DNA from: an uncultured Steroidobacteraceae bacterium
GTDB taxonomy: Bacteria; Pseudomonadota; Gammaproteobacteria; Steroidobacterales; Steroidobacteraceae
NCBI GenBank assembly: GCA_964600315.1
Contig: CAZRKS010000001.1
Coordinates: 7,078 to 71,077, forward strand
Reading direction: 5' to 3'
Length of the DNA: 64,000 nt
Below the pieces are notes generated by a model. It saw only the letters and a list, made by a program, of their open reading frames with translations, searched no databases and was not told the origin of the DNA. Made by a program: the position numbers and the translations under genes. Below are positions 41,141 to 61,465 of this stretch, piece by piece (the stretch's first letter is position 1; each line of letters begins with the position of its first letter).

Positions 41141-41220
41141 TCGAGCGCTCGGCGCGCCTGAGCCGAGGGCCGCCCGAGCGGCCTGGACGTTTCAGTGATT
41201 CGACAGTGGAGGAACAGCTC

Positions 41221-43550: not shown

Positions 43551-43564
43551 CCGGCGTCGCGGCG

Positions 43565-46383: not shown

Positions 46384-46414
46384 GCGCCCCGGTGTGCGGG
46401 CACGCACGGAAGCG

Positions 46415-47321: not shown

Positions 47322-48050
47322 TCACTGCGCACCGCGGGCCTTGCGTCCGTTCGACAGCATCAGTTCGCCGCTCAGCATTCGCTCGAAGGCACGCAGCAGG
47401 GACGCAAAGTCCTTGCTGCCTGTCGGCGGACCGTCCACCGCAGCCAGCCCCGAGATGCAGGCAATCAGCATCTGTGCCGCCGCCTCGATGTCGACGCCGC
47501 GCCCGAGTTCCCCGCGCCGACGGGCCCGCCGCAGCAAGCCGCGAAAGAACTCCGGAAACGCGTTGGCATCCTCGGGGTCCAACCAGTCGAGATCGTCGTA
47601 GCGAGCGATCTCGCCGGCCGAAGCCCCCGCGAATGCCATCAGCCCGGGATAGCGCCGCGACAGCGCCAGCACCTTTTCGAGGCCCAGGCACAACTGCCCC
47701 ATGCTGGTGCCGTCCGGAAGTTCCTCGCACGCCGAACGGTAGGCATCGACGAGGATCGCATTCGCCGCCTGCAGGGCACTGCGGTACAGCGCCGCCTTCG
47801 AGTCGAAATAGTGATACAGGAGCGTCGCCGTGACGCCTGCATCGGCTGCGATGGTCTTGTTGCTCGCCTTGGCGTAGCCCTGGCTCGCAAAGCACCGGAT
47901 GGCCGCTTCGATGATCCGCTGCCGCGTGTCCGCCGCGACGCTGCCGCCCCGGGGGCGACCCGGTCGGCGCCGGGCAGGGGCGGTGGCGGCTGGCTTGCGG
48001 GGCATGGTTGCGCGCCAGTCTATGCGCAGCGTGCGCGGCTCGACAATCAT
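47322..48050 (-). CDS. TetR/AcrR-family transcriptional regulator
   Basis: HTH segment RQRIIEAAIRCFASQGYAKASNKTIAADAGVTATLLYHYF. ATG at 48050 or the in-frame ATG at 48005. Neither has a clear SD. Confidence 0.8.
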   Translation of the reverse strand: MIVEPRTLRIDWRATMPRKPAATAPARRRPGRPRGGSVAADTRQRIIEAAIRCFASQGYAKASNKTIAADAGVTATLLYHYFDSKAALYRSALQAANAILVDAYRSACEELPDGTSMGQLCLGLEKVLALSRRYPGLMAFAGASAGEIARYDDLDWLDPEDANAFPEFFRGLLRRARRRGELGRGVDIEAAAQMLIACISGLAAVDGPPTGSKDFASLLRAFERMLSGELMLSNGRKARGAQ

Positions 48051-48315: not shown

Positions 48316-48951
48316 CTACGGCAGGGTCGCGAGGCGCGCAATCAGGCGCGCGAGGGTGAGGTAGTACCGGTGCGCGTCGTGGCGCTCCAGCCGCGCCGCC
48401 AGATCCGTCGCCCAGCGCGCCGGATGGCGGCGCTGGAAATCGGTACGCGCGCGCCGGTAGTCGTCGGCGCCTGTGCCCGCGACCAGGCACTCGGCCTCGC
48501 GCTGGCTCAAGAAATGCAGGAAATCCATCTGCGCGAACGCATGATCGGGCAGCTCGTTCCCCGGCGCACCGGCGGCGGTGAGCCCGAAGTGGTTATAGAA
48601 CCGCACCAGTTCCTCCAGCAGCTTCATGCGTCCGTCCTGCCCGAGCAGCGCACCGCTGTTCAGCGGGCACGCCGGGCCGCCCGGCCCGATCGGGTCGAAC
48701 AGCCGTGAGTATTCGGTCGCGAGCGCTTCGCCCGCGGGAACGTCCGCGAGCGCCGACCAGTCGATCGCACCTTCCAGCGACGGGTCGAGCGCGCCGAGCA
48801 GCTCCCTCGCCCGCTGCATCACCGCACCATCCTGGATCAGTGCCACCAGCGCTGCGTCGGGGTATTCGAGCGCGGCGGCCAGCAACCCCCACGCCTCGCT
48901 GCGCAGCCGCGCCCTCTCGGCCAGGCGCCCGCGGTCGAGCGCAATCGTCAT
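48316..48951 (-). CDS. NarJ/TorD/EbdD-type molybdoenzyme assembly chaperone (delta 1)
   Basis: Trimmed to ATG 48951, overlapping the alpha stop (ATGA). 211 aa. EYSRLFDP motif and acidic helical character typical of redox-enzyme maturation proteins. Confidence 0.7.
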   Translation of the reverse strand: MTIALDRGRLAERARLRSEAWGLLAAALEYPDAALVALIQDGAVMQRARELLGALDPSLEGAIDWSALADVPAGEALATEYSRLFDPIGPGGPACPLNSGALLGQDGRMKLLEELVRFYNHFGLTAAGAPGNELPDHAFAQMDFLHFLSQREAECLVAGTGADDYRRARTDFQRRHPARWATDLAARLERHDAHRYYLTLARLIARLATLP

Positions 48952-51836
48952 GCCCGGGTCACCTCGACCGCCGCGCCGCGCGGGACGTGGCTGGGTGCGC
49001 CGTAGAACATCCGGTAGTGCAACTGGCTGTAGCCACCCGCAAGGTGCAGCGCCTTCCACGGCGCCTCGATCGGTTCGGTGGGCCCCTTCCACTGCTTGAA
49101 CTGGTAAGGCTCCCACGCGTGATAGACGATCACCTCGCCCGGGGCCGTCGCCGCCGCGACCTTCACCATGCACTCGAACTCGCCGCGGTCATTGTGCACG
49201 CGCACGCGGTCGCCGTCGGCGATGCCGCGCGGCTCGCAGTCGCGAGGATTCATGAAGCAGACCGGCTGCCCGCGCTCGAGTTGCAGCATGAGCTTCATGT
49301 CGCGCCAGATGGCGTGGACGCTCCAGCGGTTGTGCCCGCCATAGACCCGCAGCGGAAACCTGCTGCTCGCGAGCGGCGGATCCTTGTGCACCGGCAGCAC
49401 CTCGCCGCCCTCGAGGTACCACGGATGGTCGAGGTAGAACTGCTGGCGGCCGGTCAGCGTGGGCCACGCGACCTTCTTCTCGACGAAATCACGGTGCGGC
49501 CAGTGCGTGTCGTTCCGGTCGTAGTCGCTGTAGTTCTGGTAAATCAGTGTCGGGCGCGCGGTATCGATCACCGGGACCGCGCCCATGTCGAGCGCTTCGC
49601 GCGCGCTGTTCGCGGCCACGCTGGGGCTCCCGGCGAAGATCGCGTCCATCAGCCGCAGCGGATCCTCCGGATCGGTCGGGTCGTACTTGCCGTCCTGCGT
49701 GTGGCGGTCGTACACGGTCCGCAGGTCGAGCGGCTCGTCGCGGAAGCCGCGTACCGTCGAGACGCCGCGCTGCCGTGCTCGTTCGGCGATGTACTTGCTC
49801 AGCAGGCCGAACGTCTCCCAGTCGGACTTGGCCTCGCCGGGCGGCTCGGTCGCCTTGTCCGAGCAGATGATGTACGGCACGTAGGTCTGTCCGTACTTGA
49901 TGCCGTACTTCTCGTAGTAACCCGCCACCGGCAGGACGTAGTCGGCGTACATGCCCGAAGTCGACATGCGGAAGTTGACCGACACGACGAGGTCGAGCTT
50001 CGGCCACAGCTTCTCGCGCGCGATCTGCGCCGCCGGCCAGCGCCGCAACGGGTTGCAGCCGGTGAAGATGTAGACCTTCGGCGAACGGTCCTCCGGCGGG
50101 TGGACCTTCATCCAGCCGCGGTCGAGGGATTCGCGCACGTACTCGCGGAGGTGGCGCGGCAGCGCCGGGTCCTGCAGGTGAGCCTCGTCCCACATCTCGC
50201 GGTAGCCACCGTGGACGTACAGGAACACCATCAGCGGCACGATCGGCTCCCGCTCGCTCATGCCGACGAAGACGCTCTCGTAGTCGCGCGGCGTCAGTCC
50301 GCGGATCGCCTTCGGAATGAGCCGCAGCTTCTCCATCGTGGTCAGCGCCGACTGCGAGGCGATCGCATCGAGGCCGTCCATGCCCCACCACGCCGCGATG
50401 CGCACGCCGCCGCCCTGCCGCCCCTGGTTGCCGGTCAGCGCCATCAGCAACATCATCGAGCGCTGGAACAGATCGCTGTGGTAGTGCTTGCAGGCACCCC
50501 AGGACGCGAAGATCATCGAGCGCCGCGCGCCGGCCATCCCACGCGCAAAGGTCCGGATGGTGTCCGGATGCAGGCCGGTGAGCACCGCGGCCTGCTCGGG
50601 GCGATAGTGCGCGTCGAGCTGCGCGCGCAGCCTGTCGAACACCGTCTCGACCCAGACTTTGGAGCCGTCGGCGAGCTTCACCTCGAAGCGTCCGGACAGC
50701 GCCGGACGGATGCTGCCGAGCGCGAGGCTGCGCCCGCCCTCGCCATCGCCCTCGCAGCCGGGTGCCTGCACGAGCCGATTCGTCGCCTGGTCCCACAGGT
50801 ACAGCGCGTTGTCCGCACCGCCGCGCCGGAGGTCGGATTCACGCAGGAAACGCTGATTGTCGGCGCGCACCAGGAACGGCAGGTCGGTCTGTTCGAGCAC
50901 GTAGTCCGGCTTGAACAGCTGCTCCTCGATCATGACCTGCGCGCACGCGAGCCCCAGCGCGGCGTCGGTCTCCGGCCTCACGTTGAGCCACAGGTCGGCG
51001 TGGATCGCGCTCGGACTGTAGTCCGGCGCGATCACCACCAGCCGCGCGCCACGGTAGCGTGCCTCGTGCATGAAGTGCATGTCGGGGATGCGCGTGTACG
51101 CGGGGTTCCCCAGCCAGACCACGATGTAGTCGGACAGGAACCAGTCGTCGGCGGTGCCCTCGCTGTTGAACAGCCCCCAGGTCTGCACCGCGCCCATCGG
51201 CATGTCGCTCACGCCGGCCCACGAGTCGATGCGCGTCGCCTGCAGCGACTGCGCGAAACGCATGTCGCCCGCCGAATCCGGCCCGTAGCCGGCATTGGTC
51301 GTGCCGTCGTCGAAGATCACCGACTCGGTGCCGTGCTCGAGCGCGGCGTCGATCACGCGATCGGCGATGTCGGTCAGGGCCTCGTCCCACGAGACGCGCT
51401 TCCACTTGCCCTCGCCGCGCTCGCCCACCCGCTTCAGCGGATGCGTGACGCGCGATTCGGCGAGCTGCAGGTGCGTGTAACAGGCACCCTTCTGACAGCC
51501 ACGCGGGTTGAAGTCTGGTACGTCGGGACGGTGCGGCGCGTAGACCGCGGCCTGCTCCTCGCGCCACGCGATCCCGTCCTTCACGTAGACGTCCCACGAG
51601 CACGCGGAGATGCAGTTGGCGCGAGTGTGCGTGCCCTTGGCCACCCGGTCCCAGGTCCATTTCTCGCGCCAGATGTCGGAGAAGTCGTCGTAGCGCACGC
51701 GCTCGGTGGCCACCGGCGGCACCGGCTGGTAGGCGGGCTTCTGCGCCGGCCGCGGGCGCAGGTTGTGGAGAATCAGGCCACCCGCAGCGGCCACCGCGGC
51801 CGAACCGAGGATGAAGCGACGACGTGAGATGGACAT
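48948..51836 (-). CDS. molybdopterin oxidoreductase catalytic subunit, type II DMSO-reductase family (EbdA / steroid C25 dehydrogenase alpha-like), copy 1
   Basis: 962 aa, AAGGAGAA SD. Twin-arginine leader MSISRRRFILGSAAVAAAG. N-terminal His/Cys cluster HTRANCISACSW...NPRGCQKGAC. Candidate Mo-ligand Asp in WAGVSDMPMG. Confidence 0.9.
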   Translation of the reverse strand: MSISRRRFILGSAAVAAAGGLILHNLRPRPAQKPAYQPVPPVATERVRYDDFSDIWREKWTWDRVAKGTHTRANCISACSWDVYVKDGIAWREEQAAVYAPHRPDVPDFNPRGCQKGACYTHLQLAESRVTHPLKRVGERGEGKWKRVSWDEALTDIADRVIDAALEHGTESVIFDDGTTNAGYGPDSAGDMRFAQSLQATRIDSWAGVSDMPMGAVQTWGLFNSEGTADDWFLSDYIVVWLGNPAYTRIPDMHFMHEARYRGARLVVIAPDYSPSAIHADLWLNVRPETDAALGLACAQVMIEEQLFKPDYVLEQTDLPFLVRADNQRFLRESDLRRGGADNALYLWDQATNRLVQAPGCEGDGEGGRSLALGSIRPALSGRFEVKLADGSKVWVETVFDRLRAQLDAHYRPEQAAVLTGLHPDTIRTFARGMAGARRSMIFASWGACKHYHSDLFQRSMMLLMALTGNQGRQGGGVRIAAWWGMDGLDAIASQSALTTMEKLRLIPKAIRGLTPRDYESVFVGMSEREPIVPLMVFLYVHGGYREMWDEAHLQDPALPRHLREYVRESLDRGWMKVHPPEDRSPKVYIFTGCNPLRRWPAAQIAREKLWPKLDLVVSVNFRMSTSGMYADYVLPVAGYYEKYGIKYGQTYVPYIICSDKATEPPGEAKSDWETFGLLSKYIAERARQRGVSTVRGFRDEPLDLRTVYDRHTQDGKYDPTDPEDPLRLMDAIFAGSPSVAANSAREALDMGAVPVIDTARPTLIYQNYSDYDRNDTHWPHRDFVEKKVAWPTLTGRQQFYLDHPWYLEGGEVLPVHKDPPLASSRFPLRVYGGHNRWSVHAIWRDMKLMLQLERGQPVCFMNPRDCEPRGIADGDRVRVHNDRGEFECMVKVAAATAPGEVIVYHAWEPYQFKQWKGPTEPIEAPWKALHLAGGYSQLHYRMFYGAPSHVPRGAAVEVTRA

Positions 51837-51890
51837 GGCGCAATTCTCCTTCCGGCCGACCGATCCGTGCCCCGCCCCGACGCGCTCCGC

Positions 51891-52913
51891 TCAGACCCAC
51901 TTGATCGTCTGGGGATCGCGGTCAAAGCCGCCGAACATGTCCTGCCAGCGGTAGGCGATCAGCAGGTCCATGAGTTCGGAGCGCTCGCCGCGCGCGGTCT
52001 TCGCGCGCTCCTCGGCCAGGATGCGCAACGCGTCGAGCACCCGCTCGCCGAACAGCGACACGAGGTACTCGTTCGGGATGCGCGGGCTCGCGGTGTCGAC
52101 GCGTCCCTCGGCGTCGAAACGCGCGGGAGCGCTCGGCGGCACGTAGAACACGTTCGGCTCGGTGCCGAATTCCGGATGCAGCGGCAAGGCAACCTGCCAC
52201 TTGTCGACCAGCTTCCAGATCGGCGCATCCTGGTCGTCCCGGTACCCGACGAAGCGCACGCGCCCCGGGCACTGGCGGGCGCACGCCGGCGCCACGCCCT
52301 GCTCGAGACGGGGAAAGCAGAAGATGCACTTCTGTGACACGCGCGTGGCGTGATTGAAGTAGATCTTCTTGTACGGGCAGGCTTCCATGCAGTGGCGGTA
52401 GCCGCGGCAACGGTCCTCGTTGACCACCACGATGCCGTCCTGCGCGCGCTTCTCGATCGCCCCGCGCGGACAGGCCTCCCTGCACGCCGGATGTGTGCAG
52501 TGGTTGCAGAGGCGCGGCAGGTAGAAGAAGAAACTGTTGGGGAATTCACCGCCACCCTGGTCCTCGTCCCAGTTCGGTCCCCACTGCGGCGCGGCGCCCT
52601 TCACCGACAGGTGCACGTCCTGCCCTTTGCCGCCGTAGAACACTTCCTCGTGGTTGTACTGCCACGCATCGCCGAATTCGCCCAGCGACGGCAGCGTGCC
52701 GAGTTGCGCCTCGCCGCCCGGGAAGCCGCCGCCCATCTTCTCCCACTGCCGCGGTGTGCCCTCGCCGGGCATCGTGTTCACGGTGTTGAAGAACATGTGC
52801 TCCATGCCCTGGCTCGACGTCCACAGCGTCTTGCAGGCGACGCTGCAGGTCTGGCAGCCGATGCACTTGTTGAGATCCAGGACCATCGCCATCTGGCGCT
52901 TGATTTCCGCCAT
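51891..52913 (-). CDS. four-cluster Fe-S electron-transfer subunit (NarH/EbdB-like beta), copy 1
   Basis: 340 aa. Cys clusters CIGCQTCSVACK, CNHCTHPACREACP, CRGYRHCMEACP and CIFCFPRLEQGVAPACARQCP. Confidence 0.9.
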   Translation of the reverse strand: MAEIKRQMAMVLDLNKCIGCQTCSVACKTLWTSSQGMEHMFFNTVNTMPGEGTPRQWEKMGGGFPGGEAQLGTLPSLGEFGDAWQYNHEEVFYGGKGQDVHLSVKGAAPQWGPNWDEDQGGGEFPNSFFFYLPRLCNHCTHPACREACPRGAIEKRAQDGIVVVNEDRCRGYRHCMEACPYKKIYFNHATRVSQKCIFCFPRLEQGVAPACARQCPGRVRFVGYRDDQDAPIWKLVDKWQVALPLHPEFGTEPNVFYVPPSAPARFDAEGRVDTASPRIPNEYLVSLFGERVLDALRILAEERAKTARGERSELMDLLIAYRWQDMFGGFDRDPQTIKWV

Positions 52914-52955
52914 CGCCTCGCTCCCCTGGGTGCCCCGGCCAGATCGCCGACGTGA

Positions 52956-53600
52956 CTACGCGAGCACCAGTTCCCGCCAATCGCCCGAGTACGCCTTCAG
53001 TCCACCGCGTTCCCGGTGCGACCCTTCCCACACCGCGACGCCGAAACGCGTCGTCTGTCCGGCCGCGAGCGCGAGGCTGTCGGCGTTGCCTTCGCCCGCA
53101 AGCGTGCGCGCCATCACCAGTTGCCAGGCCTCACCGCGCCATGCCGCCCGCGCCTGCACGCCACGGCCGGTGATGCGCGTCGTCCCCGGCCCCTCGGCAC
53201 GAACCTCGAAGCCCTGCGGGCCGCTGTCGGCACGCCACAACCACGCCGTGAGCGGCATGCCCGGTGCGCCCATCGTGATCAGGGGCGCAGACGCGTGCAG
53301 CGGCAGTGCGATCGCGGCGGCGTCCGGGAACACCGTGTTGTCACCGTGGTCGTAGTTCGGTGCGGGATCGGCCCAGCGCAGATGGAAGAGCAGTGAATCA
53401 CCCGCGACGAGGGCCCGCACCTCGACCGCGCGGACTGCGCCGATGACACGATCGTACCAACCGTTGCGCACCGCGGCGGTGGGCTGCAATCCGACCGGAG
53501 TGCCCTGCAACGCGACCGCGGTCGCCGCCACCTCGCCCCACGCGGGTGCGGCGGGATCGAGCAGGCTCGCCAGGGAGTGAACGGTGGAACTCGCTTTCAT
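52956..53600 (-). CDS. heme b-binding gamma subunit (EbdC / EB_dh-domain-like), copy 1
   Basis: 214 aa. LITMGAPGMP and C-terminal ERGGLKAYSGDW resemble the Met and Lys heme-ligand contexts I recall for ethylbenzene dehydrogenase gamma. The N-terminus also resembles EbdC. Confidence 0.75.
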   Translation of the reverse strand: MKASSTVHSLASLLDPAAPAWGEVAATAVALQGTPVGLQPTAAVRNGWYDRVIGAVRAVEVRALVAGDSLLFHLRWADPAPNYDHGDNTVFPDAAAIALPLHASAPLITMGAPGMPLTAWLWRADSGPQGFEVRAEGPGTTRITGRGVQARAAWRGEAWQLVMARTLAGEGNADSLALAAGQTTRFGVAVWEGSHRERGGLKAYSGDWRELVLA

Positions 53601-53817
53601 CGCCCTGCTCCGGAAACGGCAGCCGCCATCGGCACGTGTCGGGATTCACCTGACCAACGATTCTAGGGAGCGTGCAACGGCACGGAGGGCCGGCATCCCC
53701 AGATTGGGCGATCTGGCGCCCGCTCTGGCCGGGACCCGTCGCGTCGACAGTTCGCCGCACCCTTCGCTATCATCGCGCGGGGCCCGAGCCCGCCAGCCGA
53801 CTCGCCGGGGCCGCGAC

Positions 53818-54276
53818 GTGAAGATCGACGAAGCCGAGTTCTCCGCGCATTACTACCAGCTCTCGTACATGCTCTCGCGCTTCCTCGTACCGACGATGCG
53901 CGAAACCTACCGCGAGTTCGGCGGAGACATGCTGCTAACGCTGGTGCTCGGCGAGATCGCCACGCGCAACCTCGGACAATTCTTCGCACGCGGCGAACCC
54001 GAACTGCCGGAATCGGTGCTGAACGACCCGTCGCTGCAACGACGGTTGCTGCGTCCCTGCAATGCTCTGTCGATCAGCGACGCGACCGGGATTCCGCGCG
54101 AAACCGTGCGTCGACGCGTCAAGACGCTGTGCGAACTCGGATTGATCGACCAGGACGAACGCGGACACCTCTACGTGACACAGAAGGCCGCGGACCGATT
54201 CCAGCGCATCACCCGCTCGGCGCTCGAGGACCTTCTCCCCATCGCCGAATCCCTCAACGCCCTGCTGCGCCGGTAG
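53818..54276 (+). CDS. putative winged-helix transcriptional regulator
   Basis: The C-terminal two-thirds contain ISDATGIPRETVRRRVKTLCELGLIDQDERGHLYVT (HTH plus wing). GTG 53818 was chosen because the longer track ORF would overlap the gamma gene start. The start is uncertain. Confidence 0.45.
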   Translation: MKIDEAEFSAHYYQLSYMLSRFLVPTMRETYREFGGDMLLTLVLGEIATRNLGQFFARGEPELPESVLNDPSLQRRLLRPCNALSISDATGIPRETVRRRVKTLCELGLIDQDERGHLYVTQKAADRFQRITRSALEDLLPIAESLNALLRR

Positions 54277-54294: not shown

Positions 54295-55743
54295 TCAGCC
54301 GCCGGCGACCGCCTCGGCGACGGTGAAGCCCGACATGATCGCCTGCTGCGTGCCGATGCCCCGGCCGCCGGCATCACAGCCGACCAGGTAGAGGCCCTGC
54401 ACCGGAGTCTGGATCGACGGCTTGCTGTCCCCGCACTGGCCGACGATCTGTGCCAGGCCGATGGTCTCTCCACCGGTGCCTGGCAGGGTGGGGTCACGGG
54501 TGGCGTTCGAGACGCTTCGGGTGGTGTAGAGGTCCTTCTCCTCGATCAGGCCGCGCGCCTGCGGGAACAGGCCGAAGAAGATCTCCTCGCCGGCATTGGC
54601 CCACGCCGCAATCGATTCCTTCCTCATCGCCGGATCGGGCGGGCAGAACGAGCCGGTGAGGATCACCTGCTTGCCGGCCGGTGCGGCGCCGGGGTGGTAG
54701 TTGTTGGGTGCTTCGAAATAGAGCACCCCTTCGCGCGACGCCTCGCCGCGGTCGGCGGCAGCCAGCCGGGCACTGCTCCAGGGGCTGCTGTCGGAAAAGA
54801 CCACGCCGAACCCCTTGTCGGTGATCGGCTCCCGGAGGAAGTAGCGGTAGCCGAGCAGCGCCTGCGAGGGCACGAGTCCCTTGACGCGCTCGACGTAGTC
54901 GGTCGGGAATGCCGCCTCGCCGGCCAGCTTCAGCACGGTCGGCTGGATGCCGGCGTTGCTGATCACGATCGGCGCCCGATGGATGGCGCCGTCCCTGGTT
55001 TCGATGCCGGTCACCCGCCCCGCTTCGATCAGGATGCGGTTGACGCGGGTGTGCATCCGCACCGTACCACCGTTGCGACGCACCGATTCCACGCATGCCT
55101 CGCCCAGTGCGCCGTATCCCCCCTGACAGAAGAGCCCACCGCCGCGCAGGAAGATGTCCTGGAGCCCCAGGATCGCCTCGGCGGCGTCGAGCCGGTCGAC
55201 CGGCACCATGTACATTCCGTCGAGACAGAGACTGACGATGAAGGCATAGAGCGGCTGCGGGAGGCCGGCGGCCCTGATGAGGCTCTCGAAATCGGTGCCC
55301 TCGTGGCTCTTGATCCGCTCCGGCGGCATCAGGGTGAGGGCGATGAAGAACTCGAGCGCCCGGGCGCGGTCGGGACCGGCGACGCCGAGCCAGTCGAAGA
55401 GAAGGTTGGGGTCGACATGGCCGTCCATTTTCGGCATCGCGTGGTACTTCCCCTGGGGGGTCTTGTAGTAGCTGCCCGACTCGGAGGCGACCAGCGTGAC
55501 GGCATCCGCGATCCCGAGCTCATCGACCAGCTTCTGGCACCCGTTCGGCCTGACCGGAGCCCCCATGATCGGCCAGGCGGAGTAGGTGAAACCCTTCTTG
55601 CTCAGGGACAGCGCCTTGCCGCCGGCGACGCTGTTCTTCTCCACGACCAGGACGTTGAGCCCCCGCCTGGCGAGCAGTCCGGCACAGGCGGCACCGCCGA
55701 GGCCAGCCCCGATCACGATGGCGTCGAGACCTCTGCTGGTCAT
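54295..55743 (-). CDS. FAD-dependent oxidoreductase, phytoene desaturase (CrtI)/amine-oxidase-like family
   Basis: Trimmed to ATG 55743, overlapping the TetR stop (ATGA). DAIVIGAGLGGAACAGLLARRGLNVLVVEKNSVAGGK dinucleotide fold and C-terminal GLYLVGCDAGGRGIG. 482 aa. Confidence 0.8.
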   Translation of the reverse strand: MTSRGLDAIVIGAGLGGAACAGLLARRGLNVLVVEKNSVAGGKALSLSKKGFTYSAWPIMGAPVRPNGCQKLVDELGIADAVTLVASESGSYYKTPQGKYHAMPKMDGHVDPNLLFDWLGVAGPDRARALEFFIALTLMPPERIKSHEGTDFESLIRAAGLPQPLYAFIVSLCLDGMYMVPVDRLDAAEAILGLQDIFLRGGGLFCQGGYGALGEACVESVRRNGGTVRMHTRVNRILIEAGRVTGIETRDGAIHRAPIVISNAGIQPTVLKLAGEAAFPTDYVERVKGLVPSQALLGYRYFLREPITDKGFGVVFSDSSPWSSARLAAADRGEASREGVLYFEAPNNYHPGAAPAGKQVILTGSFCPPDPAMRKESIAAWANAGEEIFFGLFPQARGLIEEKDLYTTRSVSNATRDPTLPGTGGETIGLAQIVGQCGDSKPSIQTPVQGLYLVGCDAGGRGIGTQQAIMSGFTVAEAVAGG

Positions 55744-56432
55744 GCGGCGCGGGCCGCCCGGTCCATGGCCCCCTCGACCAGCATGGCCACGAGTTCGGCC
55801 TGCTTCTTCCTCGCCCTCGCAGACATCGGCTCGGCGCCCAGCAGTCCCGCATAGAGCGGCGCCATGGTGATGTAGGACATCACCATGTTGTTGAGGGCCA
55901 CGACGGCCCAGCCCTGCAGCAGCCGCTCTCCCAGCACTTCGAGATTCGCGGTTTTCAACTTCGCCGGATCGCGGCGAAACATCGGTCCGAGCAGCCTGGC
56001 GACGAGCTCCTCGGTGCGGGGTCCGCCGTCGAGCGCGGCATGCTGCAGCAGTCGCGCCAGGTTCGGATGCTCGAAGTGCCGCGCGACGTAGCGGCGCAGC
56101 CATTCGAGCACGCGCTCGCGCGAGATCACCCCGGTCTGCAGCTCGGTCGTGAGCGGCACGAAACGCGCGAGCAGCCGCTCCATCACCGCGAGGTACAGCG
56201 CTTCCTTGCTGCGGTAGTGGCTGTAGAGGCTCGGGGCGCGGATGCCGACCTGCTCGGCGATGTCCACGAGCGAAGCGGCCGCGTAGCCGCGCGCCGCGAA
56301 CGTCTGTTCCGCGACGTCGAGGACGCGTTCGGCGGTGGACGTGCGCTGCCCGGTGCCGCGTGCGGGGAGTGCCGCGGGCCGGCGCCGGCGGCCCGTGCGG
56401 GCCGGCTCAGCCCGCTGCGATGCGCGTGTCAT
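55740..56432 (-). CDS. TetR/AcrR-family transcriptional regulator
   Basis: 230 aa. HTH segment AERVLDVAEQTFAARGYAAASLVDIAEQVGIRAPSLYSHY. The 5' end overlaps delta 2 by 26 nt. Confidence 0.8.
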   Translation of the reverse strand: MTRASQRAEPARTGRRRRPAALPARGTGQRTSTAERVLDVAEQTFAARGYAAASLVDIAEQVGIRAPSLYSHYRSKEALYLAVMERLLARFVPLTTELQTGVISRERVLEWLRRYVARHFEHPNLARLLQHAALDGGPRTEELVARLLGPMFRRDPAKLKTANLEVLGERLLQGWAVVALNNMVMSYITMAPLYAGLLGAEPMSARARKKQAELVAMLVEGAMDRAARAA

Positions 56433-56910
56433 GTTGGAATGCCTCGAGAATGGCTGTCATGCGTGCATCGCCGTGCTGCAGCGCCGTGCGCGCCGCCTCC
56501 GACCAGGGGGCGATGCAGCGCTGCACCAACCCTGCCACGAGCACCGGCTCCTCGCGCTCGATGGCGAGCGCGTAGAGCTCGCACGCGAGCGCCAGGTGAT
56601 CGGGCGGCAGCAGTCGCCCGCTAGTCTCGACCTCGAGGTGCTCGGCAACCCTTAGCAGCGTCTCGCGCAGCGTGCTGCCGTCGGCGCCCGGCAGCGCGTG
56701 CAGTTGCAGGGGCACGGGGGGTTGCGGCACTCCGGCATGGAAGGTGTTCCAGAAATCGACGCACGCGGTGTCGTAGCTGCCCGGCAGCGCGAGCGCCTCC
56801 CACGCTGCGTGGAGCGTGGCTACCTCGCTCAACGGGCTCCACAGTCGCGCCCAGGCGAGCATGCGCAGCGTGCCGTCCTTGATCGCGGGCACCGTCGCCA
56901 CGGAGTTCAC
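56407..56910 (-). CDS. putative molybdoenzyme assembly chaperone (delta 2)
   Basis: GTG 56910 overlaps the gamma 2 stop (GTGA). 167 aa, acidic and helical, in the position of EbdD/NarJ. Sequence similarity to delta 1 is weak by eye. Confidence 0.5.
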   Translation of the reverse strand: MNSVATVPAIKDGTLRMLAWARLWSPLSEVATLHAAWEALALPGSYDTACVDFWNTFHAGVPQPPVPLQLHALPGADGSTLRETLLRVAEHLEVETSGRLLPPDHLALACELYALAIEREEPVLVAGLVQRCIAPWSEAARTALQHGDARMTAILEAFQHDTRIAAG

Positions 56911-57452
56911 GCGAGCTCCACCCAGCCGGGGCTGACGGACTTGAGTCCGGCGCGTTCCTGCTCGGCGCCGCGCCAGATGGCGAGCGCGAGGCGACGGTGC
57001 GCCGCGAGCGCCGGCCACTCCGCCACCGCGAAGGCCACGCGCCAGCGGCCGCTCTCCCAGGCCGACGTCGCGCGGATGCCGGATGGAACTGCACTGCGCT
57101 GCATGCTGCCGAGACCTTCCGCACGCACCCGCAGTGGCGCGTCCTTGTCCGCGCGCCAGAGCCAGCCCTGCACGGCCATGCGCGGCGCGCCCATGGTGAT
57201 CCACGGCGCCTCGGGGACTTCGGGCGCGAAGATGGCACAGGCGTCGACGAAACGGTCGGTCTCGCGGGCGACATCCCGCACCGGCTGTGGGCAATCCCAG
57301 GCGAGCACGATCTGCCACCCCTGGTCCGCGGGCTCCACGGCGATCTCAGCCGTGGCGGTGAGCGGCGTCGCGCGATCGGCGTAGGCTGCCGGCACGTAGC
57401 CGCCGGGCTGGATCGCGGTCGGCGCCGACATCAGTGCGACTCTCTGCTTCAT
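56907..57452 (-). CDS. heme b-binding gamma subunit (EbdC-like), copy 2
   Basis: 181 aa. WITMGAPRMA and ERAGLKSVSPGW are counterparts of the copy 1 motifs. Starts 4 nt after the beta 2 stop. Confidence 0.7.
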   Translation of the reverse strand: MKQRVALMSAPTAIQPGGYVPAAYADRATPLTATAEIAVEPADQGWQIVLAWDCPQPVRDVARETDRFVDACAIFAPEVPEAPWITMGAPRMAVQGWLWRADKDAPLRVRAEGLGSMQRSAVPSGIRATSAWESGRWRVAFAVAEWPALAAHRRLALAIWRGAEQERAGLKSVSPGWVELA

Positions 57453-57456
57453 GGCA

Positions 57457-58494
57457 TCACGCGAACACTTCGCGCTGGTGCGGTGCCAGCCGGAAATTCT
57501 GCTGCCAGTCGTACGCGATCAGCAGGTCCATGAGTTCGCTCGGCTCACCGCGCTGGCGCTTCGCGCGCTCGGCACGGAGCGTCTCGAGCGCAGGTCGCAC
57601 GGCCGCGCCGAACAGCGACTCGAGATACGCGAGCGGAATGCGCGGCTCTGCCGTCGGGCGCCCGTCCGCATCGAGCTGCGGCGGCGAGAGCGGCGGCACG
57701 TAGAAGACGTTCGGCCCCAGGCCGTACTCGGGGTGCAAGGGAATGGCCACCTGCCACTTCTCGACCAGCTTCCAGATCGGGCCCTGCTCGTCGTCGCGGA
57801 AGCCGACGAAGCGCAGGCGGCCCGGGCACTGCCGCGCGCAGGCCGGCGCCACGCCCTCCTCGATGCGCGGCAGACAGAAAATGCACTTTGCCGCGACCTG
57901 GCGCACGTGGTCGTAGTAGACCTTCTTGTAGGGACAGGCCTCGACGCAGAAACGATAGCCGTGGCAGCGGTCCTGGTCGACCAGCACGATGCCGTCCTGC
58001 CTGCGCTTCTCGATCGCCGCGCGCGGGCAGGCATCGAGGCAGGCCGGATGCGTGCAGTGGTTGCACAGGCGCGGCAGGTAGAAGTGGTGATTGTCCCGAG
58101 GATAGCGGCCGGCGCCCTGGTCCTCGTCGAAGTTCGGCCCCCATTGCACCTGCCCGGCGGGCCGGATCCAGATCTTCTCCTTCGCGCCCGCCGACGCGCG
58201 CGCCTGCTCGTGATCGAAGGTCCACGCGCGCCCGTAGCCGGTATCGACGTTCGGCACGACGCCGCGCTTCACCTCGCCGCCCACGGTGCGCCCACCCGTC
58301 GCGGGATCGTGCACGCCCGCCGGGAAGCCCTTGCCCGGCAGCGTCTCGACGTTGTTCCAGTAGCTGTAGTTCGTGCCCTCGTCGGTGTTCCAGAGCTTCT
58401 TGCAGGCGATCGTGCAGGTCTGGCAGCCGAGGCACTTGTTGAGGTCGAGCACCATCGCGACCTGGGCGTCGGGTTTCGGGACGTCGTACTTCAT
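57457..58494 (-). CDS. four-cluster Fe-S subunit (NarH/EbdB-like beta), copy 2
   Basis: Trimmed to ATG 58494 (MKYDVPKPDAQVAMVLDLNKCLGCQTCTIACK). Further clusters CNHCTHPACLDACP, CHGYRFCVEACP and CIFCLPRIEEGVAPACARQCP. 345 aa. Confidence 0.9.
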   Translation of the reverse strand: MKYDVPKPDAQVAMVLDLNKCLGCQTCTIACKKLWNTDEGTNYSYWNNVETLPGKGFPAGVHDPATGGRTVGGEVKRGVVPNVDTGYGRAWTFDHEQARASAGAKEKIWIRPAGQVQWGPNFDEDQGAGRYPRDNHHFYLPRLCNHCTHPACLDACPRAAIEKRRQDGIVLVDQDRCHGYRFCVEACPYKKVYYDHVRQVAAKCIFCLPRIEEGVAPACARQCPGRLRFVGFRDDEQGPIWKLVEKWQVAIPLHPEYGLGPNVFYVPPLSPPQLDADGRPTAEPRIPLAYLESLFGAAVRPALETLRAERAKRQRGEPSELMDLLIAYDWQQNFRLAPHQREVFA

Positions 58495-58504
58495 GCGGGG
58501 CGCC

Positions 58505-61465
58505 TCAGGTGTCGACCACCGGCTTCGCGCCGGTGGCCTGCCCCGTCCAGGGACGCAGGCCGATGCGCGTGTCCTGCACGGCACTGCCGGGTTGATAACG
58601 ATTCATGGCCTGCCGGATGTGGCCGTAGCCTCCCGCCATGTGCAGCGGGTTGACCAGGCCCGGGATTAGGAACTTGTAGGACTCGTGATTCGCGAACTGG
58701 TGCGGCTCCCAGGCGTGGTAGTAGTACGCGACGCCCGGGCGCACCATGGCGGCGACCTTCACGCGCATGCGCACCGAACCGTAGTCGTTGAAGATCTCCG
58801 CGTACTCGTAGTCGTGCACACCGCAGCGCGCGGCATCTTCGGGGTTGACCCACACCTGCGGCTCGCCGCGTTGCAGCCGCAGCATCATCGGCGTGTCGCG
58901 CCAGGTGGAGTGGATCGACCAGCGCGCGTGGCAGCTCACGAACTGGAACGGGTAGTCGCCGCCGGCCTTCGGGCTCGCCTTGTGGGTCGCGAACTGCTCG
59001 CGGAATTCCACGAACCACGGGTGGTCGATGAACGTCGTGATGCGCCCGCTGTAGGTCGGCCACGGCTCCTTGTGCTCGGTGAAGCGCGTGAGCGTCGTGA
59101 GCACGCCGGGGCCCTTCCAGTCGGGGTTGTGCAGCGACGTCGCCGCAATGTCCATGCCGGTGGCGGTGTAGCGGGCGATGCCTGTCTGCTTGAGGCCCGC
59201 GACGGTCATGCCGTCCGTGGACTTGCTGCGCAGGATCTCGTCGGCGAGCTTCTCGGCATCCTTGGGGCCGAGCGTGCCCTGGTTGGAATAACGCTGGTGC
59301 AGCGTCTTCCAGTCGATCGGCCCGCGGCCGCAGCCGTCGAACACCGGCAGGTCGCGCTCCTGCGCGAGGCGCTCGATCTCGCGGCTCAGGAGCCAGTAGA
59401 TCTCGTACTCGTCCTTCGCTTCGCCGAGCGGCGGCACGGCCGCGTCGCAGTAGTGGAGGTAAGGGACGTGCGCGACGGTGTACTTGATGCCCGATTTCTC
59501 GTACCAGCCGGCCGCCGGCAGGATGTAATCCGCGTGCATGCCGGTGAAAGTGAACTTCGGGTTGATGTCGACGATCAGCTCCATCTGGTCGAGCTGATGG
59601 GCCTTCAGGTACTGCGGCAGGTTGTTCCGCCGCAGCAGGTTGGCGCCGCCCGAGAAGTACACCCTGGGCGGCGCCTTGCGCGGCAGGCCCGGCGCCCAGC
59701 CTTTGTCGTGCGCCTCGTCGTAGTAGGCGCCGAGCGGGCGCGGCGACAGGCCCTGCTGTTCGCGCTCGAGCGCGGCCCGGTAGCCCGGCGCCTTCAGGTT
59801 CACCTCCACGACGTCCGTCGTGCAGAGCTTCGTATCGAGGTACTTGGTCTCGCCCGCGAGCGCCACGTCGAGTTCGGTCTTGCGCTTCCTGGCGATCTCG
59901 AGCATTGCGTTGAAGAGTTCGCCGGGCGTGACGGCCCCGAACAGCACGGCGAGCCGGCCGCGCAGCCCGGGCTGCTCCATCCGCATCGCGTTGCTGAACC
60001 CGTCGAGGTCGACCCATGCGGTCGATTGATAGCCCGCGCCCCTGCGCCCGAGCGCGCCCTTCAGCGCCAGGCACAGGAGCTTCGCGCGGTTCATCAGGTC
60101 GGAGTGCACGTAGCGGTTGGAGCCCCACGAGGACAGCACCATCGGCCGTTCGGCCCGCGCCCAGCCCTGCGCGAACTGCCGGACCTGATCGACGTGAAGG
60201 CCGGTGACCTCGGCCGTGCGCTCGAAGGTCCAGGGCTCGAGATGCTCTTTCAGCAATGCGCCCACCGGGACCACGAGCACCTCGCGGCCGTCGGCGAGCG
60301 CCACCGGCCACTGACCGTCGATTGGCGGCTCGAAGTCGAGCGTCAGGCGGCGCGTCTCGCTGCCCGAAGCGCCGGGCGCTGCGACGGGCTCCCTGCGTCC
60401 CGGGTGCCACAGGTAGAGCTGGTCCGGCCGGCCGCCCGTCTGGAGATCCTCTTCGCGCAGGAAGCGCCCCGTGTCGAGGCGCACCAGCAAGGGCAGGTCC
60501 GTCTGCTCGCGCACGAAGGGCAGGTCGACGGCGTTCGCCTCGAAGAGGTGCCGCGCCACGGCGAGCGCGAGCGCCGCATCGGTACCGACGGCAATCGGAA
60601 GCCACTGGTCGGCGTGGATGGCGGTGGGCGAGTAGACGGGATCGATCACCACCAGTTCGGCGCCCCCGTAGCGCGCCTCGTAGAGAAAATGCGCGTCCGG
60701 GATCTGCGTGACCGACGGGTTCATCATCCACACGACGAGGAAGTCGGAGAGGAACCACTCGTCCGAGGAGCCACCGGTGTGCGCGAAACCCAGGGTCATG
60801 GTCGCGCCGATGTTGAGGTCGCCGATCTCGGCCCAGTTGTCGGCGAAGATCCCGCCCGCCATGAACTGGAACTTGAAGCGCCCGGCGGTCGTGGGACCGA
60901 AGTCGAAGTTCGGGCCGAGATCCTGGTACAGCGTGTCGGTGCCGTAGCGCGTGGCCGCGTCGATGCATTTCCCGGCGATCTCGCGCATCGCCTGCTCCCA
61001 GCCGATGCGCTGCCACTGGCCCGAGCCACGGGGCCCGATGCGCTTCAGCGGCACGAGGGTGCGTGAGGGCCCGTACATCACTTCCGTGTAGCAGGCGCCT
61101 TTCTGGCAGCCGCGCGGATTGAAGTCCGGCACGCCGGGCTCCGACTGCGCATAAGTGGCCGTTTGCTCTTCGCGGACCACCACGCCGCCCTTGACGTACA
61201 TGTCCCAGGCGCAAGCCGAGCGGCAGTTGGCCCAGCCGTGGGAGCCCTTGACGACGCGGTCCCAGGTCCACCGCTGGCGGTAGAGGTCCTGCCAGTTGCC
61301 GAGCTTCGGCGTCGTGCGGGGCCCGGGCACGGCGGCGGGCGCGCCACGCTTGAAGACGTAGTGGTACAGCGGAATGCCGGCGGCGCTCGCGGCGGCCGCG
61401 CCACCCAGCAGCTGCAGCAGGCGGCGGCGGTTCAGGCGCAGGCCCCGGCGTTCGTCGACGGACAC
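58505..61465 (-). CDS. molybdopterin oxidoreductase catalytic subunit, type II DMSO-reductase family (EbdA/S25dA-like), copy 2
   Basis: 986 aa. GTG start 61465, preceded by GAGGGAGAG. Tat leader RLNRRRLLQLLGGAAAASAAG. HGWANCRSACAW...NPRGCQKGAC. Candidate Asp in WAEIGDLNIG. Confidence 0.9.
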   Translation of the reverse strand: MSVDERRGLRLNRRRLLQLLGGAAAASAAGIPLYHYVFKRGAPAAVPGPRTTPKLGNWQDLYRQRWTWDRVVKGSHGWANCRSACAWDMYVKGGVVVREEQTATYAQSEPGVPDFNPRGCQKGACYTEVMYGPSRTLVPLKRIGPRGSGQWQRIGWEQAMREIAGKCIDAATRYGTDTLYQDLGPNFDFGPTTAGRFKFQFMAGGIFADNWAEIGDLNIGATMTLGFAHTGGSSDEWFLSDFLVVWMMNPSVTQIPDAHFLYEARYGGAELVVIDPVYSPTAIHADQWLPIAVGTDAALALAVARHLFEANAVDLPFVREQTDLPLLVRLDTGRFLREEDLQTGGRPDQLYLWHPGRREPVAAPGASGSETRRLTLDFEPPIDGQWPVALADGREVLVVPVGALLKEHLEPWTFERTAEVTGLHVDQVRQFAQGWARAERPMVLSSWGSNRYVHSDLMNRAKLLCLALKGALGRRGAGYQSTAWVDLDGFSNAMRMEQPGLRGRLAVLFGAVTPGELFNAMLEIARKRKTELDVALAGETKYLDTKLCTTDVVEVNLKAPGYRAALEREQQGLSPRPLGAYYDEAHDKGWAPGLPRKAPPRVYFSGGANLLRRNNLPQYLKAHQLDQMELIVDINPKFTFTGMHADYILPAAGWYEKSGIKYTVAHVPYLHYCDAAVPPLGEAKDEYEIYWLLSREIERLAQERDLPVFDGCGRGPIDWKTLHQRYSNQGTLGPKDAEKLADEILRSKSTDGMTVAGLKQTGIARYTATGMDIAATSLHNPDWKGPGVLTTLTRFTEHKEPWPTYSGRITTFIDHPWFVEFREQFATHKASPKAGGDYPFQFVSCHARWSIHSTWRDTPMMLRLQRGEPQVWVNPEDAARCGVHDYEYAEIFNDYGSVRMRVKVAAMVRPGVAYYYHAWEPHQFANHESYKFLIPGLVNPLHMAGGYGHIRQAMNRYQPGSAVQDTRIGLRPWTGQATGAKPVVDT

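What the first reader, a model, noticed from the sequence alone, without database searches (positions are those of the whole stretch)
48316..53600. EbdABCD / steroid-C25-dehydrogenase-type molybdenum hydroxylase operon with permuted gamma-beta-alpha-delta order
The operon encodes four components:
- a Tat-leader alpha subunit (962 aa, SRRRFILG) with an N-terminal His/Cys cluster and an Asp-containing putative Mo-ligand loop
- a four-cluster beta subunit
- an EbdC-like heme b gamma subunit with Met and Lys ligand contexts
- a NarJ-like chaperone
The set resembles O2-independent alkyl-chain hydroxylases (ethylbenzene, p-cymene and steroid C25 dehydrogenases) more than nitrate, perchlorate or selenate reductases, although I cannot run the phylogeny. 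Transcription order here is gamma, beta, alpha, delta. The second copy in this window keeps alpha, beta, gamma, delta. In a steroid-catabolic neighbourhood, the substrate is plausibly a sterol side chain or another tertiary or benzylic-like carbon.
Basis: partly seen in the sequence, partly recalled or inferred. Interest (0 to 1): 0.7.

Follow-up and report, generated by a model that had tools for sequence, protein, structure and literature searches.

The report
Sterol side-chain molybdenum hydroxylase operon
This four-gene operon encodes a molybdenum enzyme of the steroid C25 dehydrogenase family, which adds a hydroxyl group from water to a sterol side chain without oxygen; it is a clear new member of a known family, and its "unusual" gene order is the normal one for that family.

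Summary
Four tightly packed minus-strand genes at 48316-53600 encode a heme b gamma subunit, a four-cluster beta subunit, a Tat-exported molybdopterin alpha subunit (962 aa) and a NarJ-like delta chaperone.

The alpha subunit is 68% identical to S25dA3, the catalytic subunit of the characterised steroid C25 dehydrogenase 3 of Sterolibacterium denitrificans. In a 125-sequence tree it sits next to the clade holding S25dA3 (92% bootstrap), away from EbdA and with PcrA as outgroup. It keeps the Asp molybdenum ligand and its Lys partner. Like S25DH, it lacks the His192 of ethylbenzene dehydrogenase.

The gamma-beta-alpha(-delta) order is not a permutation peculiar to this window. It is the order of the S. 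denitrificans S25DH3 and S25DH4 clusters and of 12 or more related loci.

The "second copy" is a different enzyme: a steroid C26 dehydrogenase (S26DH) orthologue, 75% identical to S26DH1 alpha, in the order alpha-beta-gamma plus a divergent delta-like ORF. The window therefore carries both molybdenum hydroxylases of the oxygen-independent sterol side-chain pathway, in an uncultured high-GC gammaproteobacterium-like lineage. The substrate is untested.

Verdict: new member of a known kind, modest interest.

The parts
52956..53600 (-). gamma subunit (214 aa), heme b, S25dC/EbdC type; first gene of the operon
   Evidence: Pfam EB_dh E 1e-22 and TIGR03477 E 2e-37. Aligns with EbdC 2ivf_C over residues 9-210, with Met110 and Lys202 at the heme ligands Met108 and Lys201. 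51% identical to the gamma of the S. denitrificans S25DH3 locus.
51891..52913 (-). beta subunit (340 aa), four Fe-S cluster ferredoxin
   Evidence: TIGR03478 scores 506 bits, above the 480.7 cut-off; Pfam Fer4_11. 75% identical to the S25DH3 beta in L001.
48948..51836 (-). alpha subunit (962 aa), Tat-exported Mo-bisPGD catalytic subunit of S25DH type
   Evidence: SRRRFILG Tat motif. Pfam Molybdopterin plus Molydop_binding; TIGR03479 E 9e-273. 68% identical to S25dA3. Tree placement. Asp211, Lys450, no His at the EbdA His192 position, FS0 His/Cys3 motif.
48316..48951 (-). delta (211 aa), NarJ/SdhD-like cytoplasmic maturation chaperone; ATGA overlap with the alpha stop
   Evidence: Pfam Nitrate_red_del E 4e-13; TIGR03482 E 4e-37. 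Junction sequence. Homologues follow alpha in 12 or more related loci.
53818..54276 (+). small winged-helix-like ORF (about 152 aa), divergent from gamma; candidate regulator
   Evidence: 54% identical to the 164-aa ORF directly upstream of gamma in the S. denitrificans S25DH3 locus. Also found beside the operon in L037, L003, L004 and L006. Only a weak HTH_IclR match and no NCBIfam match. A sigma-70-like site lies at 53744-53773 on the + strand.
58505..61465 (-). alpha2 (986 aa), S26DH-type catalytic subunit with Tat motif NRRRLL
   Evidence: 75% identical to S26DH1 alpha (P0185 = WP_154715926 = S25dA5) and 73% to S26DH3 alpha. Falls inside the S26DH clade at 200/200. 38% identical to alpha1.
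57457..58494 (-). beta2 (345 aa), Fe-S subunit of the S26DH-type enzyme
   Evidence: Pfam Fer4_11 E 8e-31. 76% identical to the S26DH1 beta. Start at MKYDV.
56907..57452 (-). gamma2 (181 aa), short heme b subunit of S26DH type
   Evidence: No Pfam hit at 1e-4, but TIGR03477 E 7.5e-20 and EbdC E 3e-12 with the Met and Lys kept. 51% identical to the 181-aa gamma of S26DH1.
56407..56910 (-). delta2 (167 aa), divergent NarJ-like ORF; GTGA overlap with the gamma2 stop
   Evidence: 46% identical to the 190-aa ORF after gamma in the S. denitrificans S26DH1 cluster. hhalign against the delta1-family alignment gives probability 90%, E 1.7e-6. BLASTP against delta1 gives E 1e-5. Pfam Nitrate_red_del only E 0.029.
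54295..55740 (-). CrtI-family FAD oxidoreductase (481 aa) between the two clusters; role unknown
   Evidence: TIGR02734 crtI_fam E 4.5e-24, below cut-off; Pfam Amino_oxidase. A 33% identical homologue follows delta in the Halieaceae locus L035.
55740..56432 (-). TetR-family regulator downstream of the S26DH-type cluster
   Evidence: Pfam TetR_N E 1.6e-13. A TetR also follows delta2 in L082, L084 and L085.
47322..48050 (-). TetR-family regulator downstream of delta1
   Evidence: Pfam TetR_N E 3.7e-14.

Best explanation
The operon encodes a periplasmic alpha-beta-gamma molybdenum enzyme of the steroid C25 dehydrogenase (S25DH) clade of type II DMSO reductases, plus its cytoplasmic chaperone.

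Shown by sequence:
- The alpha subunit has a twin-arginine signal, the FS0 His/Cys3 motif, the Asp that ligates Mo and the Lys that holds it monodentate.
- The beta subunit is a four-cluster ferredoxin.
- The gamma subunit keeps the Met/Lys heme b ligands.
- Delta is NarJ-like.

Inferred from the family (PMC6016249, PMC6153880, PMC7411048):
- Delta inserts Mo-bisPGD in the cytoplasm.
- The complex is exported by the Tat system.
- Mo(VI)=O takes a hydride from the tertiary C25 of a 3-keto sterol. The hydroxyl group, which derives from water, rebounds onto the carbocation.
- Electrons pass from FS0 through the beta clusters to heme b, then to a periplasmic acceptor.

The neighbouring alpha2-beta2-gamma2-delta2 cluster is an S26DH orthologue. 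After phosphorylation and elimination of the 25-OH group elsewhere, it would hydroxylate the allylic C26. The exact sterol substrate cannot be read from sequence: the four S. denitrificans isoenzymes, 72-82% identical to each other, already differ in specificity.
For: - All four subunits match their families.
- The best solved structure is EbdA, 576 bits, against 518 for PcrA.
- 68% identity to S25dA3. Its identity is fixed by the accession SMB27756.1 / SDENCHOL_20460. S25DH3 was produced and assayed (PMC6016249, PMC6153880).
- Beta is 75% and gamma 51% identical to the S25DH3 partners.
- NJ tree of 125 sequences, 929 columns, 200 bootstraps: alpha1 is sister to the S25dA3-containing clade at 184/200, and alpha2 lies inside the S26DH clade at 200/200.
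- Asp211, Lys450 and no His at the EbdA His192 position. The review states that S25DH lacks that His.
- The gamma-beta-alpha(-delta) order is shared with L001 and 12 other loci.
- An S26DH-type cluster lies 3 kb away here and directly adjacent in L082.
- Steroid-type beta-oxidation genes sit at 1-19 kb.
Against: - No activity data exist for this protein or for any member of its own subclade. It branches just outside the Rhodocyclaceae S25dA radiation, so it is related to the four characterised isoenzymes as a group rather than matched to one of them.
- No candidate for the 25-hydroxysteroid kinase (phosphotransferase family), C26 aldehyde dehydrogenase or AcmA/AcmB was recognised in the window.
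- The neighbourhood also holds oxygenases (P450, Baeyer-Villiger monooxygenase, luciferase-like monooxygenase) and wax-ester genes. The physiological setting may therefore differ from the denitrifying model organism.
- SerA, ClrA, DdhA, CmdA and S25dA8 were not in my tree.
Confidence: 0.78

Rival explanations
1. It is an S25DH-fold enzyme whose natural substrate is not a C27-C29 sterol. The substrate could be another lipid with a tertiary or allylic carbon, such as a hopanoid or other isoprenoid, a sterol ester or sulfate derivative, or a branched alkyl chain.
For: - The alpha subunit lies outside the characterised Rhodocyclaceae isoenzymes.
- The window is rich in neutral-lipid genes: four WS/DGAT genes, a fatty acyl-CoA reductase, a sulfatase and esterases.
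- Specificity shifts quickly within this family (PMC6016249). S25dA8 is thought to act on a non-steroid isoprenoid (PMC6016249).
Against: - 68% identity to a sterol-active enzyme, with the same subunit set and gene order.
- An S26DH orthologue at 75% identity sits next door, and S26DH is known only from sterol side-chain oxidation (PMC7411048).
- Steroid-type CoA ligase, lipid-transfer protein and enoyl-CoA hydratase family matches lie upstream.
Confidence: 0.17
2. It is a respiratory oxyanion reductase (perchlorate, chlorate, selenate or nitrate type), or a dimethylsulfide dehydrogenase as some MAG annotations say.
For: - It shares the type II DMSO reductase architecture and the Asp ligand with these enzymes.
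- Automatic names such as 'Dimethylsulfide dehydrogenase subunit alpha' and 'selenate/chlorate reductase' are attached to close homologues.
Against: - PcrA scores lower than EbdA, and no PcrA-like sequence falls near alpha1 in the tree.
- 68% identity to S25dA3.
- NarG and YnfE/DmsA models score far below their cut-offs.
- No respiratory context appears in the window.
Confidence: 0.02
3. It is an ethylbenzene or p-cymene type dehydrogenase acting on alkylaromatics.
For: EbdA is the closest solved structure. All four EthbenzDh NCBIfam models give hits.
Against: - All four equivalog scores are far below their cut-offs (alpha 641 against 2000).
- EbdA His192 is absent.
- EbdA sits on a different major branch.
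- The gene order differs from ebdABCD.
- No aromatic-degradation genes are nearby.
Confidence: 0.03

Closest known systems
Steroid C25 dehydrogenases S25DH1-4 of Sterolibacterium denitrificans (closest: S25DH3, alpha3 = SMB27756.1 / WP_154716956)
   Same: - Alpha 68%, beta 75% and gamma 51% identical.
- Same gamma-beta-alpha gene order, with delta following as in S25DH4-type loci.
- Tat signal, Asp211 and Lys450, and no EBDH-type His.
- The same small winged-helix-like ORF lies beside the operon.
   Different: - It branches outside the Rhodocyclaceae paralogue radiation.
- The host is a roughly 70% GC lineage whose nearest relatives are labelled Pseudomonadales or Pseudomonadota MAGs.
- An S26DH cluster lies next door, whereas the two are about 1.4 Mb apart in S. 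denitrificans.
- The substrate is untested.
Steroid C26 dehydrogenases S26DH1-3 (S25dA5-7) of S. denitrificans
   Same: This is the family of the second cluster in the window: 75% and 73% identity, alpha-beta-gamma order, a 181-aa gamma, and a following 167-190 aa ORF.
   Different: The operon in the finding is only 38% identical to this type and has the opposite gene order.
Ethylbenzene dehydrogenase EbdABCD (PDB 2ivf)
   Same: Same fold and cofactor set. The Asp Mo ligand, Lys450 and the Met/Lys heme ligation are conserved.
   Different: The alpha hit scores 576 bits, far below the EbdA equivalog cut-off. There is no His192, the gene order is different, and it lies on a separate branch.
Perchlorate reductase PcrAB (PDB 4ydd/5e7o) and other type II oxyanion reductases
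   Same: [quoted passage not shown]
   Different: Lower similarity. PcrA served as the outgroup, and Lys450 is replaced by His in PcrA in the alignment.

Membership tests
Type II DMSO reductase family (NarG/EbdA-type heterotrimers) | Catalytic subunit with a molybdopterin-binding fold, an N-terminal FS0 His/Cys3 motif and an Asp ligand to Mo | tested here: met
   Pfam PF00384 plus PF01568 and TIGR03479 E 9e-273. H-x4-C-x3-C...C motif, with Asp211 aligned to EbdA Asp223.
Type II DMSO reductase family (NarG/EbdA-type heterotrimers) | Four-cluster beta subunit, heme b gamma subunit and NarJ-like chaperone encoded together | tested here: met
   TIGR03478 above cut-off. TIGR03477 and TIGR03482 give strong hits, though below the subfamily cut-offs. 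Met110 and Lys202 heme ligands.
Type II DMSO reductase family (NarG/EbdA-type heterotrimers) | Twin-arginine signal on alpha for periplasmic enzymes | tested here: met
   The N-terminus reads MSISRRRFILGSAAVAAAGG.
Steroid C25 dehydrogenase (S25DH1-4) clade | Alpha groups with S25dA1-4 rather than with S26DH, EBDH or the reductases | tested here: met
   68% identity to S25dA3. Sister to the S25dA3-containing clade at 184/200. Caveat: only S25dA3 was labelled; S25dA1, 2 and 4 are represented by unlabelled Sterolibacterium MAG paralogues.
Steroid C25 dehydrogenase (S25DH1-4) clade | Active site with Asp and Lys but without the EBDH His192 | tested here: met
   Asp211, Lys450, and Asn or Thr at the His192 position. 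The criterion comes from PMC6153880.
Steroid C25 dehydrogenase (S25DH1-4) clade | Gene order gamma-beta-alpha, with delta after alpha | tested here: met
   The S25DH3 locus L001, the S25DH4 locus tags (PMC6016249) and 12 related loci.
Steroid C25 dehydrogenase (S25DH1-4) clade | Water-dependent hydroxylation of the tertiary C25 of sterols with an artificial or cytochrome acceptor | not testable with these tools
   Needs production of the enzyme in Thauera aromatica and an assay.
Oxygen-independent sterol side-chain pathway (S25DH, 25-HSK, lyase, S26DH, C26-ALDH) | An S26DH partner is present | tested here: met
   alpha2-beta2-gamma2 at 56907-61465, 75% identical to S26DH1 alpha.
Oxygen-independent sterol side-chain pathway (S25DH, 25-HSK, lyase, S26DH, C26-ALDH) | 25-hydroxysteroid kinase (phosphotransferase family) and C26 aldehyde dehydrogenase are present | tested here: inconclusive
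   No phosphotransferase or aldehyde dehydrogenase family hit among the ORFs scanned in the 64 kb. In S. denitrificans these genes are also unlinked (PMC8449060). The rest of the genome is not available.
Ethylbenzene dehydrogenase EbdABCD (NCBIfam equivalogs NF042978-81) | Scores above the equivalog cut-offs, and His192 present | tested here: not met
   Scores against cut-offs: 641 of 2000, 470 of 740, 101 of 400 and 73 of 360 bits. No His192.
Respiratory oxyanion reductases (PcrA, SerA, ClrA, NarG) | Alpha clusters with these enzymes | tested here: not met
   PcrA and NarG score lower than EbdA, and PcrA is distant in the tree.

The most novel reading that the evidence does not exclude
An uncultured high-GC gammaproteobacterium-like lineage carries a compact sterol side-chain activation island. 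It holds S25DH and S26DH clusters, each with its own chaperone, plus a conserved small regulator and a CrtI-type flavoenzyme. The island is embedded among oxygenase genes and wax-ester or steryl-ester genes. On this reading, water-dependent molybdenum hydroxylation of sterols is not confined to denitrifying Rhodocyclaceae. It would also be used by oxygen-tolerant or facultative bacteria, possibly on sterol conjugates, and S26DH enzymes would have a dedicated chaperone that has so far gone unrecognised.
Probability: 0.3. Interest if true: 0.5.

Novelty: new member of a known kind. Interest (0 to 1): 0.3.

Why it matters
S25DH enzymes hydroxylate unactivated tertiary carbons with water. They are used to make 25-hydroxyvitamin D3, so new and divergent members are useful catalysts to test.

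The window also shows that the S25DH and S26DH pair occurs outside the model betaproteobacterium, and that the two clusters can sit side by side. That supports using them together as markers of oxygen-independent sterol side-chain degradation in metagenomes.

It also corrects a likely mis-annotation. Close homologues are labelled dimethylsulfide dehydrogenase or selenate/chlorate reductase.

None of this changes how the enzyme family is understood.

Tried and rejected
- I first took the best named homologue, P0017, to be the uncharacterised alpha8, because its accession differs from those published for S26DH1-3. The supplementary tables of PMC6208644 showed that it is S25dA3, and I corrected this.
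- An exact-sequence look-up of alpha1 found no contig on record. The genome scan found nothing closer than 90% identity, so the source genome is not identified.
- I tested whether the FAD gene between the clusters is a delta-24 steroid desaturase or limonene dehydrogenase type. It is a single CrtI-family gene and lacks the conserved His of the covalent-FMN motif G-F-x-x-x-x-H-A. Rejected.
- I tested whether the P450 is a CYP125/CYP142 sterol C26 monooxygenase. Its best structural relatives are CYP120 and CYP51. Rejected.
- I at first thought the second cluster lacked a delta, because a TetR gene follows it. tblastn with the S. denitrificans 190-aa ORF, followed by hhalign, revealed a divergent delta-like ORF.
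- The promoter and terminator scan gave no terminator and only one promoter-like site, which faces the small regulator ORF.
- No Rfam family and no tRNA were found in the window.
- I did not use the third large homologue search, the representative-library search or structure prediction. The placement was already clear.

Full report
**What is there**

The window is about 70% GC throughout. At 48316-53600, four minus-strand ORFs with strong third-position GC bias (GC3 0.82-0.92) lie head to tail:
- gamma, 52956-53600, 214 aa
- beta, 51891-52913, 340 aa
- alpha, 48948-51836, 962 aa
- delta, 48316-48951, 211 aa

The junctions are 42 nt and 54 nt, each preceded by a GGAG-type ribosome-binding site. 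Between alpha and delta there is an ATGA stop/start overlap. The ATG at 48951 is the sensible start.

Family matches are unambiguous:
- gamma: EB_dh and TIGR03477
- beta: TIGR03478, above its curated cut-off
- alpha: Molybdopterin plus Molydop_binding, and TIGR03479 at E 9e-273
- delta: Nitrate_red_del and TIGR03482

Alpha starts MSISRRRFILG, a twin-arginine signal.

**Which enzyme**

Among solved structures, alpha is closest to ethylbenzene dehydrogenase EbdA (576 bits). Perchlorate reductase PcrA scores 518 bits and NarG 244 bits. All four EthbenzDh equivalog models score far below their cut-offs, so it is not an ethylbenzene dehydrogenase.

The large protein search returned 120 hits, all at or above 56% identity. 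One hit, at 68% identity, was a named Sterolibacterium denitrificans protein, P0017. Its accessions are SMB27756.1, WP_154716956 and AFF61329. The supplementary tables of PMC6208644 identify these as S25dA3, locus SDENCHOL_20460. S25dA3 is the catalytic subunit of S25DH3, one of four steroid C25 dehydrogenases that were produced heterologously and assayed (PMC6016249; kinetic values in PMC6153880). I had first guessed that this homologue was the uncharacterised alpha8. That was wrong and is corrected here.

**Phylogeny**

I built a tree from these sequences:
- alpha1 and alpha2 from the window
- S25dA3
- the S26DH1, S26DH2 and S26DH3 alpha subunits
- EbdA and PcrA, both transcribed from the PDB alignments
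- 105 alpha sequences taken from 79 genome loci
- ten further database hits

I aligned them and trimmed to 929 columns, then made a neighbour-joining tree with 200 bootstraps.
- Alpha1 and its three 90%-identical orthologues are sister, at 184/200, to a 31-sequence clade. That clade contains S25dA3 and the several Sterolibacterium/Rhodocyclaceae paralogue groups.
- EbdA lies on a different main branch. PcrA was used to root the tree.

Limits: SerA, ClrA, DdhA, CmdA and S25dA8 were not available to me, and the method is distance-based.

**Active site**

In the alignment, alpha1 has:
- Asp211 at the position of the EbdA Mo ligand Asp223;
- Lys450 at EbdA Lys450;
- Asn (Thr in the HMMER alignment) at EbdA His192.

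The review PMC6153880 states that S25DH keeps the Asp/Lys pair but lacks that His. S25dA3 and the other clade members show the same pattern.

The FS0 motif is H-x4-C-x3-C...C. Gamma keeps Met110 and Lys202 at the EbdC heme ligands Met108 and Lys201.

**Gene order**

The gamma-beta-alpha order differs from ebdABCD only.
- The S. denitrificans S25DH3 locus has gamma-beta-alpha (L001).
- The published S25DH4 locus tags run 20204 (gamma), 20205 (beta), 20206 (alpha).
- A tblastn of the window proteins against 79 related loci found gamma-beta-alpha-delta in L003, L004, L006, L010, L012, L019, L020, L021, L025, L035, L041 and L052.
- Many Myxococcota and 'Deltaproteobacteria' loci have one gamma-beta pair followed by two or three tandem alpha paralogues and then delta.

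The order is therefore a family trait, not a local rearrangement.

**The second set**

At 56407-61465, on the same strand, lie alpha2 (986 aa), beta2 (345 aa), gamma2 (181 aa) and a 167-aa ORF.
- Alpha2 is only 38% identical to alpha1.
- It is 75% identical to P0185 = WP_154715926 = S25dA5, the alpha subunit of S26DH1, and 73% identical to the S26DH3 alpha. It falls inside that clade at 200/200.
- S26DH1 hydroxylates the allylic C26 of desmosta-1,4-dien-3-one (PMC7411048). S26DH2 acts on the stigmasterol-derived triene (PMC11061730).
- The S. denitrificans locus has the same alpha-beta-gamma(181 aa) order, followed by an unannotated 190-aa ORF (L002).
- Gamma2 misses the Pfam threshold but matches TIGR03477 and EbdC, with the Met and Lys kept.
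- The fourth ORF overlaps the gamma2 stop as GTGA. It is 46% identical to the S. denitrificans 190-aa ORF. It aligns with the delta1 family at hhalign probability 90%, E 1.7e-6.

But this is a different enzyme acting in the same pathway, not a duplicate.

**Linkage of the two clusters**

In S. denitrificans the S25DH3 and S26DH1/2 loci are about 1.4 Mb apart. Here they are 3 kb apart. In a metagenome contig carrying an 89% orthologue of alpha2, an S25DH-type gamma-beta-alpha-delta cluster (alpha 65% identical to alpha1) sits directly upstream of the S26DH-type cluster (L082). Adjacency therefore recurs in this lineage.

**Surroundings**

Between the clusters lie:
- a TetR gene;
- a CrtI-family FAD oxidoreductase (not the delta-24 desaturase type);
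- a small divergent winged-helix-like ORF, whose homologue sits beside S25DH operons in S. denitrificans and other loci.

At 1-24 kb there are steroid-type beta-oxidation genes:
- paired acyl-CoA dehydrogenases;
- a PRK07938 enoyl-CoA hydratase;
- a PRK06059 lipid-transfer protein;
- two-subunit CoA transferase genes;
- a CasG-like acyl-CoA ligase.

The same stretch also has a Baeyer-Villiger monooxygenase, esterases and a CYP120/CYP51-like P450.

At 27-40 kb there are four WS/DGAT genes, a phasin and a fatty acyl-CoA reductase. A sulfatase and two DUF1254/DUF1214 proteins follow.

I recognised no 25-hydroxysteroid kinase or C26 aldehyde dehydrogenase. There are no Rfam families or tRNAs.

**Source organism**

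The nearest relatives, at 90% amino-acid identity, are MAGs labelled Pseudomonadales or Pseudomonadota bacterium. One member of the alpha2 cluster is labelled Steroidobacteraceae. The genome itself is not in the collections searched.

**Mechanism and confidence**

The cofactor-binding features are shown by sequence. The chemistry is inferred from the characterised S. denitrificans and Aromatoleum enzymes:
1. Mo(VI)=O abstracts a hydride from C25.
2. A hydroxyl group derived from water rebounds onto the carbocation.
3. Electrons flow through five Fe-S clusters and heme b to a periplasmic acceptor.
4. The complex is exported by the Tat system after maturation assisted by delta.

I put 0.78 on 'S25DH-type sterol side-chain hydroxylase'. 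About 0.17 goes to the same fold acting on another lipid, and the small remainder to alkylaromatic or oxyanion substrates.

**Verdict**

This is a correct first-stage call on an ordinary, well-understood enzyme family: a new member of a known kind. The points of modest interest are the gammaproteobacterium-like host, the clustering of S25DH with S26DH, the likely S26DH-specific chaperone, and the oxygenase-rich context.

Noticed in passing
window 56407-56910 (-); L002:14704-15276; L082:14556-15062: A 167-190 aa ORF follows gamma in S26DH-type clusters. It has no Pfam family at threshold, but it is a divergent NarJ-like protein (hhalign probability 90% against the delta1 family). Published S26DH expression used the S25DH chaperone SdhD, so this may be an overlooked dedicated chaperone.
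   Followed up: partly
window 53818-54276 (+); L001:7396-7890: A small winged-helix-like ORF (about 152-164 aa, no curated family) lies beside S25DH operons. It appears here, in S. denitrificans (54% identity) and in L037, L003, L004 and L006, in varying orientation. It is a candidate sterol-responsive regulator.
   Followed up: partly
window 54295-55740 (-); L035:5829-7265: A CrtI-family FAD oxidoreductase lies between the S25DH-type and S26DH-type clusters, and a 33% identical homologue follows delta in a Halieaceae MAG. It lacks the covalent-FMN His motif of the delta-24 steroid desaturase. Its role is unknown.
   Followed up: partly
L082:4005-15062: In a metagenome relative, an S25DH-type gamma-beta-alpha-delta cluster sits directly upstream of an S26DH-type alpha-beta-gamma-delta cluster. 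Linkage of the two molybdenum enzymes therefore recurs in this lineage, unlike in S. denitrificans.
   Followed up: partly
L036, L038, L040, L044, L045, L060-L062, L066, L073, L077, L078: Myxococcota, 'Deltaproteobacteria' and Binatota loci carry two or three tandem alpha paralogues and, where the contig extends far enough, one delta. Most also show a single gamma-beta pair upstream (L077 and L078 do not). The first alpha in the loci with a gamma-beta pair (about 41% identical to alpha1) groups on the EbdA side of the tree. This suggests several catalytic subunits sharing one electron-transfer module.
   Followed up: no
window 27717-34946 and 37797-39833: There are four tandem WS/DGAT (wax-ester or acyl-transferase) genes, a phasin, a hemerythrin-domain protein and a two-domain fatty acyl-CoA reductase. 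Together they look like a neutral-lipid or steryl-ester storage module next to the sterol genes.
   Followed up: no
window 40675-46491: A sulfatase is followed by two paralogous DUF1254/DUF1214 proteins. A DUF1214 protein and a sulfotransferase also lie near the clusters in L082. This may point to sulfated lipid or sterol substrates.
   Followed up: no
window 1-23171: This stretch holds a steroid-type beta-oxidation set: paired acyl-CoA dehydrogenases, a PRK07938 hydratase, a PRK06059 lipid-transfer protein, a two-subunit CoA transferase and a CasG-like ligase. It sits alongside oxygen-dependent enzymes (a Baeyer-Villiger monooxygenase at 11201-12661 and a CYP120/CYP51-like P450 at 19534-20973) and an old-yellow-enzyme-type reductase.
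   Followed up: partly
database annotations of homologues: Close homologues of both alpha subunits in MAGs are auto-named 'Dimethylsulfide dehydrogenase subunit alpha' or 'selenate/chlorate reductase subunit alpha'. These are probably mis-annotations of S25DH/S26DH-type enzymes.
   Followed up: no
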